Shown here piece after piece: positions 1 to 62,246 of a stretch of DNA of 64,000 nucleotides. How positions within the stretch are numbered: the stretch's first letter is position 1; every line of letters starts with the position of its first letter. Below the pieces are notes generated by a model. The model was given only the letters and a program-made list of their open reading frames with translations. It was not told the origin of the DNA and made no database searches. The position numbers and the translations under genes are program-made. This stretch comes from Eledone cirrhosa (lineage: Eukaryota), in assembly GCA_964016885.1 (NCBI GenBank), contig OZ024740.1:324694001-324758000 (forward strand). The letters are read 5' to 3'.

Positions 1-77
1 TGCGGCGCTGCAAATGGGTTACATATGAAAAAGTTTGTCCTCATCAGTGGCCTTCCAACCGTCGTAGGCATTTCGTC

Positions 78-407
78 ATAAGATCAAAAGATGGTTAAAA
101 GAATTCCATGTATTTTAGTATGTGCATTTCAAAGACAAATATCATCATGGGATGATATTTGCGTTCTCATCAGATAAAATAGGGAGACATGATATGAAGC
201 TTAAAAAACACTTGCGAGCAGTGAAGGGTTAAATCAATATTTATATATTGATTTAACACTTCACTGCTCGCAAGTGTTTTTTAAGCTTCATATCATGTCT
301 CCCTATTTTATCTGATGAGAACGCAAATATCATCCCATGATGATATTTGTCTTTGAAATGCACATAATAAAATACATGGAATTCTTTTAACCATCTTTTG
401 ATCTTAT
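78..407. mobile_element. Near-perfect fold-back element (163-bp arms, 4-nt loop) carrying a hammerhead motif in each arm; probable PLE pseudo-LTR derivative
   Basis: 78-240 is the reverse complement of 245-407 with about 2 mismatches; a homologous palindrome lies at 61781-62132. Confidence 0.85.
304..374 (+). ncRNA. Type-I hammerhead ribozyme motif
   Basis: Stem I tattttat/ataaaata; CTGATGA at 312-318; stem II gcaaatatcat/atgatatttgt; GAAA at 355-358; short stem III tgcaca; AUA cleavage triplet. Confidence 0.75.
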
Positions 408-496
408 ATTATTTATACTCCAGTCCTATAAACTGTGGAGTGCTACTTATCCGATATTTGCATTGCTTTATTGTGCTACAATAAAACTCACCTCCT

Positions 497-551
<55 letters not shown>

Positions 552-13984: not shown

Positions 13985-14780
13985 TACACAGTAAGCATTA
14001 TAAACATAAGGGTTATATATTTTGTGTGACTGGACAACGAATGTTATATATAATAGAGTAAGCATTATAAACACGGTTATTCCATTACATGTGGTGCTGG
14101 AGAACTAATGTTATATATAATAGAGTAAGTATTATAAACATGGCTATTCCATAGCATATGTTGCTGGACAGACAATGTTATATAAATATAGTAAACAGTA
14201 AGCATTATCAACATAGGGATTACAATATATGTGGTGCTGGGCAAACAATATTATATATTTATATTAATTAAGGCGGTGGATTGGCAGTATCGGTAGAGGG
14301 TCGGACGCCATGCTTTGCAGTAAAGAGTTACGGCCCTTTATGGTCTGAGTTCAAATCCCGCCGAGGGTAACTTTGCCTTTCATCCTTACGGGGTCGATAA
14401 AATAAAGTACCAGTAATGTACTGGGTATTTGCTGGCCGCCTTGTGCCAAAAGTAGAAACAATTATATATAATTGTTTTTACTTTTGGCACAAGGCCAGCA
14501 ATTATTCCAGTACATTACTGGTACTTTATTTTATCGACCCCGTAAGGATGAAAGGCAAAGTTAACCTCGGCGGGATTTGAACTCAGACCATAAAGGGCCG
14601 TAACTCTTTGCTGCAAAGGATGGCGTCCGACCTTCATCCGATACTGCCAATCATAATGGAAACATTAACACATGGATTCCATTACATGTGGTGCTGTACA
14701 AACAATGTCATATGTAATGCAGTAAACATTAAAAACATAAGGTGTTACAATACATGTGGGATTGGATAGACAAGGAATTA
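13985..14780. repeat. Degenerate 60-70-bp minisatellite interrupted by an inverted SINE pair
   Basis: Recurrent agtaagcattataaaca...catgtggtgctggaca...atgttatata on both sides of 14270-14655. Confidence 0.7.
14270..14655. mobile_element. Tail-to-tail inverted pair of main-family tRNA-SINEs
   Basis: Plus copy 14270-14460 (A box tggcagtatcgg, B box gagttcaaatccc) and minus copy 14470-14655 meet at aattatatataatt. Confidence 0.9.
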
Positions 14781-18090: not shown

Positions 18091-18177
<87 letters not shown>

Positions 18178-18179
<2 letters not shown>

Positions 18180-19245
18180 ATAATAATAAATTCGAAGACT
18201 AAAATCCAAAGAGGGCTCGATAAGGATAAATATATATCAAATATATAAGAACCGTAGAGCAAATATATATTAAAATAACAGATTAAAGTTTAAGCAAAGA
18301 ATCGCTGCTTTCACCCTTAGCGGGATCTTCTGAAACTAACAAAGTCAATCTGTAAACGCAGAACTGGATATTTCAAAAAACGTTGCAACCGGAGGAAGAC
18401 AGGTAGACGATACTTTGGTTCGTGGTAACGTTCGCTGGCAAAGAACGGGAAAAAACGAATAATACGTCCTTAATAGGAGCGGTGAAAAACAATTACGCGC
18501 AAAGACAGAACCACGTTTATGGTATAAAAGAGGTCGTAGACTAATGTTCTCTTAGGTGGTGCATAGAGACGTTCTCTGGCAATGAACGAAAAAACGAAGA
18601 TAATACGTCATATGTGGAGCATGGAGAACAATAGCACGCCAAGACAAAACCACGTAAATGGTATAGCAGAAGTCGTAGACTAAAATTCTAACTAGTAGAC
18701 CAAATGAATCTCCGCTACAGAGTTAAGAACAAAGTAAATAAATACAATACAGAAGTAATAGAAATAAATAAATACATACACGCAAACAAATACGTACATA
18801 CAAAAGCATACGCAAAACCTTACCATAGGTATACAAAACCACGCACATATAAATATGTGTGTGTGTGTATGTGTGTATAAAAATAAATAAATAATTATAT
18901 AAACGTATAAGAATAAATAAATACGTATATAACAAGCGCACACACATACCTACATATAAATACACGAATGTTCGGAGACGTAAGTCAACTAAAACAAGAA
19001 GTACACATATACACACACCCACCATACGTACGAACCTGCATACTCACACAGACGCAAAACTCCCGTATACACATAGCCAAACCCTATGTACCAGGAATAT
19101 AAAATTATACGCCATAACAATCAAATATACGTACGGGAAGGTATACGTACCTTCACAAAACATACGGGTAATTTTGTTTATTCCTTTACTTATTTGCATA
19201 GGTAAGTATATATTACCCGTATGTTTTGAGAAGGTACGTTATATA
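18178..19245 (-). mobile_element. Non-coding 3' fragment and pseudo-LTR of the PLE family at 49150-51310, with a short fold-back at 19145-19240
   Basis: Reverse complement of about 50310-51310; bounded by (TA)n. Confidence 0.9.
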
Positions 19246-19815: not shown

Positions 19816-20911
19816 GCGGCGATGAATTAGTTTTGCGAGGTTTTTTATATGAAATCGTGTGTCGAAACAGATATTGTTATATTTGGGGAGGGTCATATTT
19901 GCGTAATATTGCCAGAATTAATAACAGAACACACTCACTGTTTGGTTGGTTTTCGCTTCTCGCTGTCTTTTATATATATATATCTGCGATCAAACTTACT
20001 CGGTCCTCAATGTTGCCATTGACTGAGCGGCGGTCAAAAATAATACAGATACAATATAGACACAAACACATATATATAGTTTACATAATTTACATAAATC
20101 TTTCGTTGCACATCTGCAACATCGTCAGTGGTGTTATATTCATTGTTCCTCCTGTTGTGTTGTATGTCTACGCCATTTTTTTTTTTTTGTTCAGTCTGTC
20201 TATATATTTATTTATTTATTTGCTTGTTTGTTTATCTTATTTTATTTTGTCTTCTTTGCGCATGCGTTTGCGTGTGTGTATAGTGTTATGTGTGATGTGT
20301 GACTAGTGTGTATAGTGTTGTGTCTGCTGGGTGACTAGTGTGTGTTTATGTGCTTGTGTATGTATTTATTTATCTTATTTTATTTAATTTTATTTACTTA
20401 TTTATACTTCTCTTAGGTCAGTGTTGTTTGTTTGGGTGTTGTTGTTGTTCCACTCATTCTTTCTGTTTAGCTTTGGTCTTCTAATTTCTATTTCACTGGC
20501 CTCTCTGATTTGCCTATCTGCTGGGTCATTCCTATGTTTAGATATTATTCTAATTTCTATGTTGTCTATGTTACCGTCGTGTTGTTGTCTAGCATGTTCG
20601 TATAGTACTGACCCGTTTTTTCGTCCTTTTAGTTCCCCCCAGTGTTGGTCTATCCTTTCACCTATGCAGATGTGCAACGAAAGATTTATGTAAATTATCT
20701 AAACTATATATATGTGTTTGTGTCTATATTGTATCTGTATTATTTTTGACCGCCGGTCAGTCAATGGCAACATTGAGGACCGAGTAAGTTTGATCGCAGA
20801 TATATATATATAAAAGACAGCGAGAAGCGAAAACCAACCAAACAGTGAGTGTGTTCTGTTATTAATTCTGGCAATATTACGCAAATATGACCCTCCCCAA
20901 ATATAACAATA
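19816..20911 (-). mobile_element. 5'-truncated Penelope-like element with inverted pseudo-LTR (GIY-YIG C-terminal remnant)
   Basis: ORF 20402-20677 reads IGERIDQHW...SVLYEH...RQIREASEIEIRRPKLNRKNEWN; arms 19872-20118 and 20665-20911. Confidence 0.85.
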
Positions 20912-21428: not shown

Positions 21429-21584
21429 ATAAGAATAAACGTTCTGCGTGGTTGCAAATGGGTTACATATGAATAAAGTTAGTCCTTCATCAGTGATCTT
21501 CCAACCATCATTGGTATTTCATCGCTTTAAAGACCATGAAATACCAATGATGGTTGGAAGATCACTGATGAAGGACTAACTTTA

Positions 21585-21592
<8 letters not shown>
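21425..21592. mobile_element. Short fold-back fragment containing CTGATGAAGG, homologous to 8-77
   Basis: About 21467-21522 is inverted against 21536-21592; similar to the window start. Confidence 0.65.
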
Positions 21593-21628
<36 letters not shown>

Positions 21629-22231: not shown

Positions 22232-23385
<1,154 letters not shown>

Positions 23386-23399
23386 ATATATATATATTA

Positions 23400-49088: not shown

Positions 49089-49149
<61 letters not shown>

Positions 49150-49155
<6 letters not shown>

Positions 49156-51306
49156 TAAAATAACAGATTAAAGTTTAAGCAAAGAATCGCTGCTTTCACC
49201 CTTAACGGGATCTTCTGAAACTAACAAAGTCAATCTGTAAACGCAGAACTGGATATTTCAAAAAACGTTGCAACTGGAGGAGGACAGGAAGACGATACTT
49301 TGGTTTGTGGTAACGTTCGCTGGCAAAGAACGGGAAAAAACGAATAATACGTCATTAATAGGAGCGGTGAAAAACAATTACGCGCAAAGACAAAACCACG
49401 TTTATGGTATAAAAGAGGTCGTAGACTAATGTTCTCTTAGGTGGTGCATAGAGACGTTCTCTGGCAAAAGCTCTTGCTCGAAGTGGATTTGTCGATAAGG
49501 TAGGATATACAGAGTATGAAAATAGACCTAGAAGAAATAGATCCCGTCGCATTTGTTGGTTTAACCCACCATATAATATGGAGGTGGCCACACCATTAGC
49601 TAAGATCTTTCTTTCCCTTATTACGAAGCATTTTCCTACACATAAATATAGTAAAATTTTTAATAGAAATACTATTAAAATTTCTTACTCTACGACTCCT
49701 AACCTTGCACATAACATCACAGCTTCAAATTTAGCTAAACTACCTAGCCGTAGGAACACGTGCAACCCTGTAGTTAGTACTAACTGTAATTGTAGGAATC
49801 GGGCTGATTGCCCCCTATCCGGGAAATGCCTCTCTAGTAGCATTGTCTACAAATGTAAGGTTGTAACACCCACGTCCCGTAGGGCCTACATAGGGTTAAC
49901 CGCCAATAGTTTCAAGCAGCGTCTTTACATGCATACCCATTCTTTTCGTTACCCTCTAAGAAGGAATATGACGTCACTTTCAGCTTATATCTGGAGTCTA
50001 AAAGACAACCACACCCAATATAAGTTACACTGGGAGATCCTAGCTAGGGCTAGATCGTATAACGGAAATAAATGACCATGTGACCTCTGCGCCGCTGAGG
50101 CCCTGGAAATACTCTACGCCACAGACCACATCTTAAACAAAAAATCTGAGGCAATTTCGGCTTGTAAACATAAATTGCACAAAACTTTCCTGTATTACAG
50201 CCCCACGTTATACCCTAACGGATAGCACGATCTATACGTGGATATTTTACGTCTTGATGTGGGAGCTAAGTATATGTTTTGTTTATTCCTTTACTTATTT
50301 GCATAGGTAAGTATATATTACCCATATGTTTTGTGAAGGTATGTATACCTTCTCGTACGTATATTTGACTGTTATGGCGTATCATTTTTACATATTCTGG
50401 TATTTAGGGTTTGGCTATGTGTATACGGGAGTTTTGCGTCCGAGTGAGTATGCAGATTCGTACGTATGGTGGGTGTGTGTATATGTGTACTTCTTGTTTT
50501 AATTGACTTACCTATCCGACATTCGTGTATTTATATGTAGGTATGTGTGTGCGCTTGTTATATACGTATTTATCTTATATACGTTTATATAATTATTTAT
50601 TTATTTGTACACAAGCATACACACACACACATATTTATATGTGCGTGGTTTTGTATACCTATGGTAAGGTTTTGCGTATTCTTGTGTATGTACGTATCTG
50701 TTTGCGTGTATGTGTTTATTTGTTTCTATTACTTCTGTATTGTATTTATTTACTTTGTTCTTAACTCTGTAGCGGAGATTCATTTGGTCTCCTAGTTAGA
50801 ATTTTAGTCTACGACTTCTGCTATACCATTTACGTGGTTTTGTCTTTGCGTGCTTTTGTTCTCCACGCTCCACATATGACTTATTATCTTCGTTTTTTCG
50901 TTCATTGCCGGAGAACGTCTCTATGCACCACCTAAGAGAACATTAGTCTACGACCTCTTTTATACCATAAACGTGGTTTTGTCTTTGCGCGTAATTGTTT
51001 TTCACCGCTCCTATTAATGACGTATTATTCATTTTTTCTCGTTCTTTGCCAGCGAACGTTACCACGAACCAAAGTATCGCCTTCCTGTCTTCCTCCGGTT
51101 GCAACGTTTTTTGAAATATCCAGTTCTGCGTTTACAGATAGACTTTGTTAGTTTCAGAAGATCCTGTTAAGGGTGAAAGCAGCGATTCTTTGCTTAAACT
51201 TTAATCTGTTATTTTAATAAATATTTGCTCTACGGTTCTTATATATTTGATATATATTTTCCTTATCGAGCCCTCTTTGGATTTTAGTCTTCAATTTTAT
51301 TATTAT

Positions 51307-51310
<4 letters not shown>
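49150..51310 (+). mobile_element. 5'-truncated Penelope-like element (Naiad-like) with inverted pseudo-LTR, inserted in (TA)n
   Basis: WFNPPY..., KIFNRNTIKISYS, CNCRNRADCPLSGKCL, IVYKC..AYIGLT, CDLC..LNKKSE..CKH; arms 49150-49467 and about 50905-51223. Confidence 0.9.
51150..51200 (+). ncRNA. Hammerhead-topology motif with variant core CAGAAGA (8 copies in the window, one lacking the 5' stem I strand)
   Basis: agttt-CAGAAGA-tccy-gttaa-gggt-GAAA-gcag..ttgc-TT-aaact. Confidence 0.55.
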
Positions 51311-51343
<33 letters not shown>

Positions 51344-59306: not shown

Positions 59307-59653
59307 AATGGAAACTATCTTTATAAAACAATATTTATTTTATTATAAATATTTCAAGGTGTACCAACATTTTTGGTACGCATTATCCGATAAAATATAA
59401 AAGTTTTTTTTAGAGATATATTCAAGGGACATATTTTTTAGAGACATATTTAGAGAAATATTCAAAACAAGAACTTATCGTTTTGAGTTATGTTTGAATA
59501 GAACAGAACTGAAAACGATAAGTTCTAGTTTTGAATATGTCACTATCTCAAAAAAACTTTTATATTTTATCTGATGAGAGCGTACCACAAATGTTGGTAC
59601 CCTTGATATATATATAAAAAAACAAATATGGTTTTACAAAGATAGTTTCCATT
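59307..59653. mobile_element. Older, diverged fold-back element with a hammerhead remnant in each arm
   Basis: Ends aatggaaactatcttt and aaagatagtttccatt; CTGATGA at 59571-59577 in the right arm; GAAA and stem I intact in the left arm. Confidence 0.7.
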
Positions 59654-61554: not shown

Positions 61555-61780
61555 CACACACACAAACGCCCTAACCATATACACGCACGCGTGCAAATAT
61601 CTATATCTGTATATATTCATATATACGTATTTGTGTTTATGTATGAATATATATATATGTATATACGCTTGTATATATATATATATAAATATATGTAGGA
61701 GGTGAGTTTTATTGTAGTACAATAAAGCAATGCAGATATCGGATAAGAAGCACTCTACAGTTTGTAGGACTGGAGTATAC

Positions 61781-62132
61781 ATAATATAAGATCAAAAGAT
61801 GGTTAAAGGAGTTCCATGTATTTTATTATGCGCATTTCAAAAACAAACATCATCATGCAATAATATTTGTGTTTTCATCAGATAAAACAGGAGAACATGA
61901 TATGAAGGCTAAAAAACACTTGTGGATAGTGCAGTTTTAAATCAACATATAAACAGTAATTTGATATGTTGATTTAAAACTGCACTATCCACAAGTGTTT
62001 TTAGCCTTCATATCATGTTCTCCTGTTTTATCTGATGAAAACACAAATATTATTGCATGATGATGTTTGTTTTTGAAATGCGCATAATAAAATACATGGA
62101 ACTCCTTTAACCATCTTTTGATCTTATATTAT
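61781..62132. mobile_element. Near-perfect fold-back element (about 170-bp arms, 13-nt loop), paralog of 78-407
   Basis: Arms differ by about 1 indel; ends at (TA)n. Confidence 0.88.
62024..62094 (+). ncRNA. Type-I hammerhead ribozyme motif
   Basis: tgttttat-CTGATGA-[acaaatattat/atgatgtttgt]-GAAA-tgcgca-TA-ataaaata; palindromic stem III. Confidence 0.8.
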
Positions 62133-62159
62133 ATATAAATATATATATATATATATATG

Positions 62160-62239
<80 letters not shown>

Positions 62240-62246
<7 letters not shown>

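What the first reader, a model, noticed from the sequence alone, without database searches (positions are those of the whole stretch)
61781..62132. Second palindrome: arms match within a copy but not between copies
Seen: this copy differs from 78-407 at many positions, yet its two arms are almost identical and its loop is different (13 versus 4 nt). Differences in stem II keep pairing through G-U wobbles on the CTGATGA strand, and stem III here is the perfect palindrome TGCGCA. Inference: each hairpin was made de novo at insertion by snap-back copying of one template, or arms were homogenised afterwards. The RNA structure appears to be under selection.
Basis: partly seen in the sequence, partly recalled or inferred. 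Interest (0 to 1): 0.75.

Follow-up and report, generated by a model that had tools for sequence, protein, structure and literature searches.

The report
Twin-primed Penelope retrotransposon ends
This palindrome is two head-to-head copies of the ribozyme-bearing front end of a very abundant Penelope-like jumping gene, likely made when both ends of one DNA cut each copied the same RNA from a different start point, which offers a testable answer to how this class of elements makes its inverted copies.

Summary
Confirmed. The arms of 61781-62132 differ by one indel; between the two window copies they differ at 23-25 of 163 sites. The palindrome is not a unit. It is a 258-nt arm with an 88-nt tail (61693-61950) joined head to head to a 169-nt tail-less arm, inserted in (TA)n. 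Both are the 5' pseudo-LTR of an abundant Hydra-type Penelope-like element (RT plus C-terminal GIY-YIG). In a census of 94 insertions, 76 of 77 resolved pairs have one tailed and one tail-less arm. The tail-less arm reaches further 5' in 39 of 76 pairs, and 8 pairs share no sequence, which snap-back copying cannot make. Both arms pile up at one 5' position, often behind a non-native G (1676 G, 1190 T, 405 A genome-wide), likely a copied cap. Best reading: twin priming from two RT start sites on one capped sense RNA, then end-joining. Selection on the hammerhead stems acts in source elements. The inverted-pLTR-plus-tail layout is published. This scan reached the twin-priming reading earlier on other DNA of this genome; I found no paper proposing it for Penelope elements.

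The parts
61693..61950 (-). Tailed arm: pLTR positions -1 to 256 of a Hydra-type Penelope-like element; 5' end at the family's recurrent start (likely transcription start)
   Evidence: 99% to the pLTR of full-length copy L070; start pile-up in census
61693..61780 (-). 88-nt tail, on one arm only; its two edges are the inferred RT start sites
   Evidence: tail-to-start-site link from PMC11167929
61819..61889 (-). Type I hammerhead motif in the tailed arm (core at 61881, long stem II, palindromic TGCGCA in place of stem III); activity untested
   Evidence: no Rfam hit at gathering score
61951..61963 (.). 13-nt junction filler; the last base (61963) is a non-native G directly 5' of the tail-less arm, likely a copied cap
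   Evidence: 13-mer found in no other fetched locus; native base at this place is C; G excess
61964..62132 (+). Tail-less arm: pLTR positions -1 to 168, ending where its ATATTAT meets the (TA)n target
62024..62094 (+). Type I hammerhead motif in the tail-less arm (core at 62032)
62133..62240 (.). (TA)n target, right side; TA-rich repeat also on the left (about 61640-61692)
78..240 (-). Copy 1, tail-less arm (pLTR 1-163) of a sister subfamily
245..499 (+). Copy 1, tailed arm (pLTR 1-255; hammerhead 304-374; tail about 413-499), followed by (CA)n/(TA)n

Best explanation
The palindrome is two head-to-head copies of the front 170-260 bases of a Hydra-type Penelope-like retrotransposon in a TA repeat, likely made by twin priming: both DNA ends of one cut would each prime a cDNA on the element's RNA. 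SHOWN: the arms are the pLTR of an element with an RT plus GIY-YIG ORF; outer ends fall at pLTR 168 or about 256, almost always one of each; the arms share a haplotype; their inner ends are set independently and pile up at one position. INFERRED: (1) the pLTR promoter starts a capped RNA at position -1; (2) the enzyme, probably a dimer, binds at the tail and cuts (TA)n; (3) one target end primes at 256 and the other at 168, most likely on the same RNA, so the 168 cDNA leads and the 256 cDNA trails and often stalls; (4) when this happens at the 5' copy of the tail rather than the 3' copy, both cDNAs run off the cap within 170-260 nt, often adding a C opposite it; (5) the two cDNA ends are joined by microhomology or short filler. 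The result is an ORF-less, probably inert by-product. The hammerhead is inherited from the source element, where its stems are under selection.
For: Upstream sequence of longer copies leads to a GIY-YIG-like ORF end and an 821-codon open frame between pLTRs. Census of tail-less ends in chromosome order: 76 tailed partners, 1 tail-less, 2 unresolved, 15 with none detected, of 94. Reverse sample of 30 tailed ends: 18 partners resolved by eye, all tail-less. Endonuclease-anchored pairs: 16 of 16 complete pairs have one of each (read by hand). Tail-less arm at least 20 nt further 5' in 39 pairs, tailed in 8, tie in 29; 8 pairs with no overlap. Starts within -6..+3: 38 of 76 tail-less and 21 of 76 tailed arms; in 23 pairs the tail-less arm starts there while its partner is truncated, the reverse in 5. 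G before the start: 22 of 45 against 13% background; genome-wide G 1676, T 1190, A 405; no native G there in 141 read-through contexts. In vitro, a Penelope-like protein cuts and extends both strands and starts at the two edges of the tail (PMC11167929).
Against: All mechanism is read from end products; there are no RNA, cap or biochemical data for this family. 29 of 76 pairs are ties, including this window's two copies, and these alone fit snap-back equally well. Tailed-tailed pairs exist (2 of 23), as does 1 tail-less pair. Five of 23 young pairs carry a subfamily-type allele on one arm only (L003, L013, L019, L020, L030), and in 2 of 13 kb pairs the arms are no closer to each other than to another locus (L080, L087), so two RNAs or conversion may occur. 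About 10 of the 22 G's can also be read as partner-arm sequence. Among the hand-picked long pairs the lead is 8 versus 7, not skewed. PMC11167929 saw no difference in start site between strands in vitro.
Confidence: 0.75

Rival explanations
1. Snap-back: one cDNA folds on itself and is copied into the second arm; spacers and unequal arms arise later by deletion at the unstable palindrome centre.
For: Same haplotype on both arms; microhomology and short self-copied fillers at junctions; perfect centres at the CATATG self-palindrome are the commonest single junction (6 of 51). Cannot be excluded for the 29 tied pairs.
Against: A tail-less first cDNA cannot supply a tail, and a tailed one cannot supply 5' sequence it never copied; 39 of 76 and 8 non-overlapping pairs need this. 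Later deletion would rarely leave one arm intact exactly to the start (23 pairs), often with the extra G.
Confidence: 0.12
2. Twin priming on two different RNA molecules, mostly from the same source locus, one per protomer.
For: Overlapping arms need no strand displacement; a few pairs carry subfamily alleles on one arm only; L080 arms differ by 1.3%. This shares most of the best explanation.
Against: Many source lineages are seen, yet 40 of 40 diagnostic alleles agree within pairs. Two free RNAs do not explain the one-tail rule or the 39:8 lead of the tail-less arm.
Confidence: 0.2
3. Self-priming on an antisense template (proposed for Penelope elements in PMC3846280).
For: Published reading of junction palindromes; a short native palindrome sits at the start here.
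Against: Inner ends pile up at a fixed sense position with a G excess 5' of it; outer ends match the two tail edges; non-overlapping arms.
Confidence: 0.05
4. Arms were homogenised after insertion by gene conversion, or the palindrome moves as a unit (MITE or foldback).
For: 9 private variants shared by both arms in 49 pairs; copy 1 shares 4 non-majority bases on both arms, one a CpG-type change; a few junction strings recur.
Against: 25 private variants sit on one arm only; arm-arm divergence is 1.1% in one subfamily sample (21 pairs) and 1.9% in the other (7 pairs); 37 junctions in 51; ends are unequal; arm lengths run from tens of bases to over 4 kb.
Confidence: 0.04

Closest known systems
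Hydra clade of C-terminal EN+ Penelope-like elements (PMC8557442), including Hydra-1_Obim in its supplement
   Same: Domain order, DKT, CxCX5C linker, no CCHH, CxxC and CxH around the conserved E and N, hammerhead, (TA)n targets.
   Different: Unit is 3,692 nt (Hydra generally under 3 kb); RWT in place of RWK; the hammerhead differs from that listed for Hydra-1_Obim (2,507 bp, 'no pLTR'). No tree with reference Hydra proteins was built.
Typical EN+ PLE insertion: inverted 5'-truncated pLTR plus a 30-40-bp tail on one end (PMC8557442 fig. 2 legend; PMC3846280)
   Same: Head-to-head inverted pLTR, one-sided tail, partial tandems.
   Different: Tail is 88 nt. The one-tail rule, the run-off pile-up and the G excess are quantified here. 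The published explanations seen are endonuclease resolution of an intermediate and antisense self-priming.
Poseidon of Anolis in vitro (PMC11167929)
   Same: AT-rich target, both strands cut and extended, two internal RT start sites bounding the tail, predicted dimer.
   Different: The text read does not derive the inverted copy from this, nor a pairing of the two sites; different PLE clade.
L1 twin priming and untemplated 5' G (passages of PMC4859970, PMC11702581)
   Same: Second target end primes a second cDNA; ends joined by microhomology; cap read as an extra G.
   Different: L1's second primer lands at variable sites next to the end of the first cDNA, so the segments barely overlap. Here both sites are fixed, 88 nt apart, and the cDNAs usually overlap, giving a palindrome.
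PLE minimal type I hammerheads and non-LTR retrozymes (PMC4209133; bioRxiv 10.64898/2026.07.22.740005)
   Same: Type I core in the pLTR, long helix II, palindromic helix III region thought to work as a dimer.
   Different: These stubs are inverted pairs, not tandem repeats; nothing shows that they replicate on their own.

Membership tests
EN+ Penelope-like element | Single ORF with RT and C-terminal GIY-YIG endonuclease | tested here: met
   821-codon open frame with YRDD and flanking RT motifs conserved in 7 aligned homologues; PF01541 at E=0.0027, below the curated cut-off. Pfam and PDB gave no RT hit, so the RT call rests on motifs.
EN+ Penelope-like element | pLTRs from partial tandems, inverted 5'-truncated copy, one-sided tail | tested here: met
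EN+ Penelope-like element | Hammerhead motif in the pLTR | tested here: met
   Core, stems I and II; Rfam has no hit at gathering score
Hydra clade | DKT in place of DKG | tested here: met
   SDKT in L069; DKT in 6 of 7 aligned homologues
Hydra clade | CxCX5C linker, no CCHH, CxxC and CxH near the conserved E and N | tested here: met
   against the definition
Hydra clade | N-terminal RWK motif | tested here: inconclusive
   RWT here; RWK in 6 of 7 aligned homologues
Hydra clade | Insertion into (TA)n | tested here: met
   (the two patterns require TA flanks, so they count rather than test the preference)
Hydra clade | Generally under 3 kb (a tendency in the paper) | tested here: not met
   Unit 3,692 nt
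Hydra clade | RT phylogeny groups with reference Hydra families | not tested
   Reference proteins were not available as tool sequences
Neptune or Nematis clade | CX2-5CxxC linker and CCHH motif | tested here: not met
MITE or foldback DNA transposon | Fixed symmetric termini and a fixed centre | tested here: not met
Non-LTR retrozyme | Tandem hammerhead-bearing units | tested here: not met
   Inverted pairs tied to an ORF-bearing element
Active hammerhead ribozyme | Self-cleavage | not testable with these tools
   Only sequence conservation was tested

The most novel reading that the evidence does not exclude
Penelope-like elements integrate by obligate asymmetric twin priming: a dimer on one capped sense RNA starts one cDNA at each edge of the tail from the two ends of the cut, the inner one leading and the outer one displacing it. 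The inverted copy and the one-sided tail would then be the normal product of the pathway, and these thousands of stubs would be a genomic record of the transcription start, the cap and both RT start sites.
Probability: 0.45. Interest if true: 0.75.

Novelty: new member of a known kind. Interest (0 to 1): 0.5.

Why it matters
How Penelope-like elements, the closest relatives of telomerase RT, form their tandem and inverted structures is called undefined in PMC8557442, and PMC11167929 leaves the steps after first-strand synthesis unvalidated. This family gives countable rules (one tail per pair, tail-less arm leading, run-off at a G-marked start) that separate twin priming from snap-back and antisense self-priming and can be tested in the existing in vitro system. 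The single locus is ordinary; the value lies in the family statistics.

Tried and rejected
Rfam at gathering score: 0 hits in the window. The repeat finder on the whole window was swamped by microsatellites. A tail-only DNA query found nothing because common words are skipped; exact patterns were used instead. RNA runs: no RNA holder listed, so no reads were laid; this says nothing on expression. Pfam and PDB did not name the RT; the Atlas gave no result. Low megablast identities between the arms of L072 and L087 (92.7%, 94.8%) first suggested two templates, but realignment gave 0.3% and 0.7%. The 13-nt loop resembles the native upstream sequence at 12 of 14 positions on the tailed strand, but no such variant was among 141 read-through contexts; its origin is open. 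My first guess of Neptune was dropped on the motif test. An assembly artefact is unlikely given unequal ends, varied junctions and arm differences, but was not checked with reads. Paper searches for a twin-priming model of PLEs listed none by title or abstract; the three papers holding both 'Penelope' and 'twin priming' were seen as listings only; closed-access papers are not searched.

Full report
Observation. The sequence is as described. The arms of 61781-62132 differ by one single-base indel and no substitution; those of 78-407 by two substitutions; across copies the arms differ at 23-25 of 163 sites. The loops are 13 and 4 nt. Each arm holds a type I hammerhead motif: an 8-bp stem I, the CTGATGA and GAAA core, a 16-position stem II and a palindromic TGCGCA. 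Rfam gave no hit.

What it is. Searching the own genome (G000, 3.0 Gb) with each tailed arm returned the 40 best-scored copies at 95-100% identity; I examined 30 loci from each. Some continue upstream into a 3' UTR and the end of an ORF with a GIY-YIG-like domain (PF01541 E=0.0027, below cut-off). That domain led to full-length copies: pLTR, an 821-codon open frame, about 950 nt of UTR, pLTR; unit 3,692 nt. The protein has RT motifs, DKT, a CxCX5C linker, no CCHH, and CxxC and CxH near the C-terminus, conserved in 7 aligned homologues of 15 found. These match the definition of the Hydra clade of Penelope-like elements (PMC8557442, section 11). RWK is RWT here, the unit is longer than usual, and no tree with reference families was built. 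The Hydra lead came from an earlier scan note and was tested here by motifs. Exact 36-40-nt end patterns occur 2,784 and 6,765 times, against 0 for controls.

Arms come from one template. In the 30 loci nearest copy 2, 23 have an adjacent inverted arm; in the 30 nearest copy 1, 9 do. In 49 census pairs covering pLTR 26-160, arms differ by 0.57 substitutions within a locus and 2.16 between loci; minor alleles at 4 diagnostic sites were on both arms 40 of 40 times; 9 private variants were shared and 25 were on one arm. In 13 kb-scale pairs the arms differ by 0-1.3% against medians of 1.6-5.7% to other loci. Eleven are closer to each other than to any other locus, L087 ties and L080 is an exception; 7 pairs are starred sisters in the tree. 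Against a strict rule: five young pairs carry a subfamily-type allele on one arm only. Junctions are locus-specific, 37 different among 51, with incomplete removal of duplicates. The palindrome is thus made at insertion and does not move as a unit.

Census. To avoid selecting on the 5' end I took tail-less ends in chromosome order: 95 of the 100 listed (of 2,784), which are 94 insertions. Partners: 76 tailed, 1 tail-less, 2 unresolved, 15 none detected; two of the 15 show tailed stubs under 20 nt by eye. Four 5' coordinates of multi-unit arms were set by hand. If ends chose their start site independently, with even a 10% chance of the tail-less site, 1 or fewer in 77 has probability 0.003. From the other side, 18 of 30 tailed ends had a partner resolved by eye within the 1.5 kb held, all tail-less; 2 of 23 pairs in the first sample were tailed on both sides. 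Among 20 hand-picked endonuclease-anchored loci, 16 complete pairs all had one of each.

Snap-back fails as the general route. In 39 of 76 pairs the tail-less arm reaches at least 20 nt further 5' than the tailed arm, in 8 the reverse, in 29 neither; in 8 pairs the arms share no sequence. A cDNA that folds back cannot yield a tail it did not copy or 5' sequence it did not reach. Later deletion at the centre could mimic this, but inner ends pile up at pLTR -6..+3 (38 of 76 tail-less, 21 of 76 tailed arms), and in 23 pairs the tail-less arm is intact to that point while its partner is truncated (5 the reverse). The 29 ties, including both window copies, fit either route on their own. The lead of the tail-less arm was not seen in the hand-picked long pairs (8 versus 7).

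The pile-up is likely a capped transcription start. The native base 5' of the start is C; none of 141 read-through contexts has G there (duplicates included). At junctions it is G in 22 of 45 arms against 13% background; about 12 of these cannot be read as partner-arm sequence, and two loci were counted more than once. Genome-wide the non-native neighbours are G 1676, T 1190, A 405; T includes a native variant and TA flanks. Copy 2 has this G at 61963. Untemplated G at full-length L1 and SVA 5' ends is read as a copied cap (PMC4859970 passages). No RNA data were available to check the start.

Mechanism. PMC11167929 (parts 1-2 of 4 read) shows a Penelope-like protein cutting and extending both strands of AT-rich DNA, starting at two internal RNA sites that bound the tail, and predicted to be a dimer; it saw no difference in start site between strands. 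Combined with the census, the simplest model is twin priming: one target end primes at pLTR 256 and the other at 168, probably on the same RNA, the 168 cDNA leading. Used at the 3' copy of the tail this gives long inverted insertions; used at the 5' copy it gives run-off stubs like this one. The cDNA ends are then joined by microhomology or filler, as for L1 inversions (PMC11702581 passages). These steps are inferred. I put identity as PLE ends made at insertion at about 0.95, twin priming at about 0.8 and a single RNA at about 0.55.

Selection on the RNA structure. In 194 loci (one arm each, two subfamilies), 8 of 8 recurrent pair variants in stems I and II keep pairing, against 6 of 25 rare ones (Fisher p=0.0002; variants are linked by descent, so this is overstated). 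None of 13 core sites has a recurrent variant, against 37 of 184 other sites. There is no recurrent two-sided compensatory change, and the CpG in TGCGCA has decayed in 7 loci. Selection acts in source elements; the stubs mutate freely. Palindromic helix III and dimeric folding are known for PLE hammerheads (PMC4209133 passages).

Novelty. The inverted pLTR with a one-sided tail is the published PLE layout (PMC8557442 passages; PMC3846280 passages, which propose antisense self-priming). The family is a new member of a known kind; it differs from Hydra-1_Obim as listed in the supplement rows seen. Six paper searches listed no twin-priming model for PLEs; closed-access papers and bioRxiv supplements were not seen. 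Earlier notes of this scan reached twin priming and run-off at the RNA start on other DNA of this genome; they are unchecked and not counted as support. My reading was written down before I saw them. A word search of the notes for the cap G found nothing. The locus is ordinary; the counted rules make an open mechanistic question directly testable. Interest 0.5.

Noticed in passing
window 1-77 and 21464-21594: The left flank of copy 1 is not (TA)n but a piece of another repeat with a hammerhead-like core on the minus strand; a related sequence forms a small palindrome at 21464-21594 that ends in (TA)n.
   Followed up: partly
window 49148-51340: Fragment of a related element (40% amino-acid identity to the endonuclease region, 49470-50189) with 320-nt inverted ends (97%); about 1 kb of it also matches 18146-19172.
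   Followed up: partly
window 22350-23386: Inverted pair of another family with a hammerhead-like core in each arm (cores at 22485 minus, 23134 plus), unequal arms, TA flanks.
   Followed up: no
window 19872-20911: 247-nt inverted arms, 99% alike, about 550 nt apart, with a hammerhead-like core near 20128.
   Followed up: no
window 14279-14652 and 59307-59653: Two further palindromes of other repeat families; the first is centred on a short TA stretch and may be two insertions tail to tail.
   Followed up: no
L036:1158-1500; L151; L045: Junctions with the first 10-40 nt of the pLTR repeated up to four times, as if the RT re-engaged the RNA 5' end repeatedly.
   Followed up: no
L153: Three private G-to-A changes shared by both arms; a mutated source copy or conversion.
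   Followed up: no
G000: The family is very young and large: 43 of the 150 scored places are identical over 144 residues, and several have open frames of about 820 codons.
   Followed up: partly
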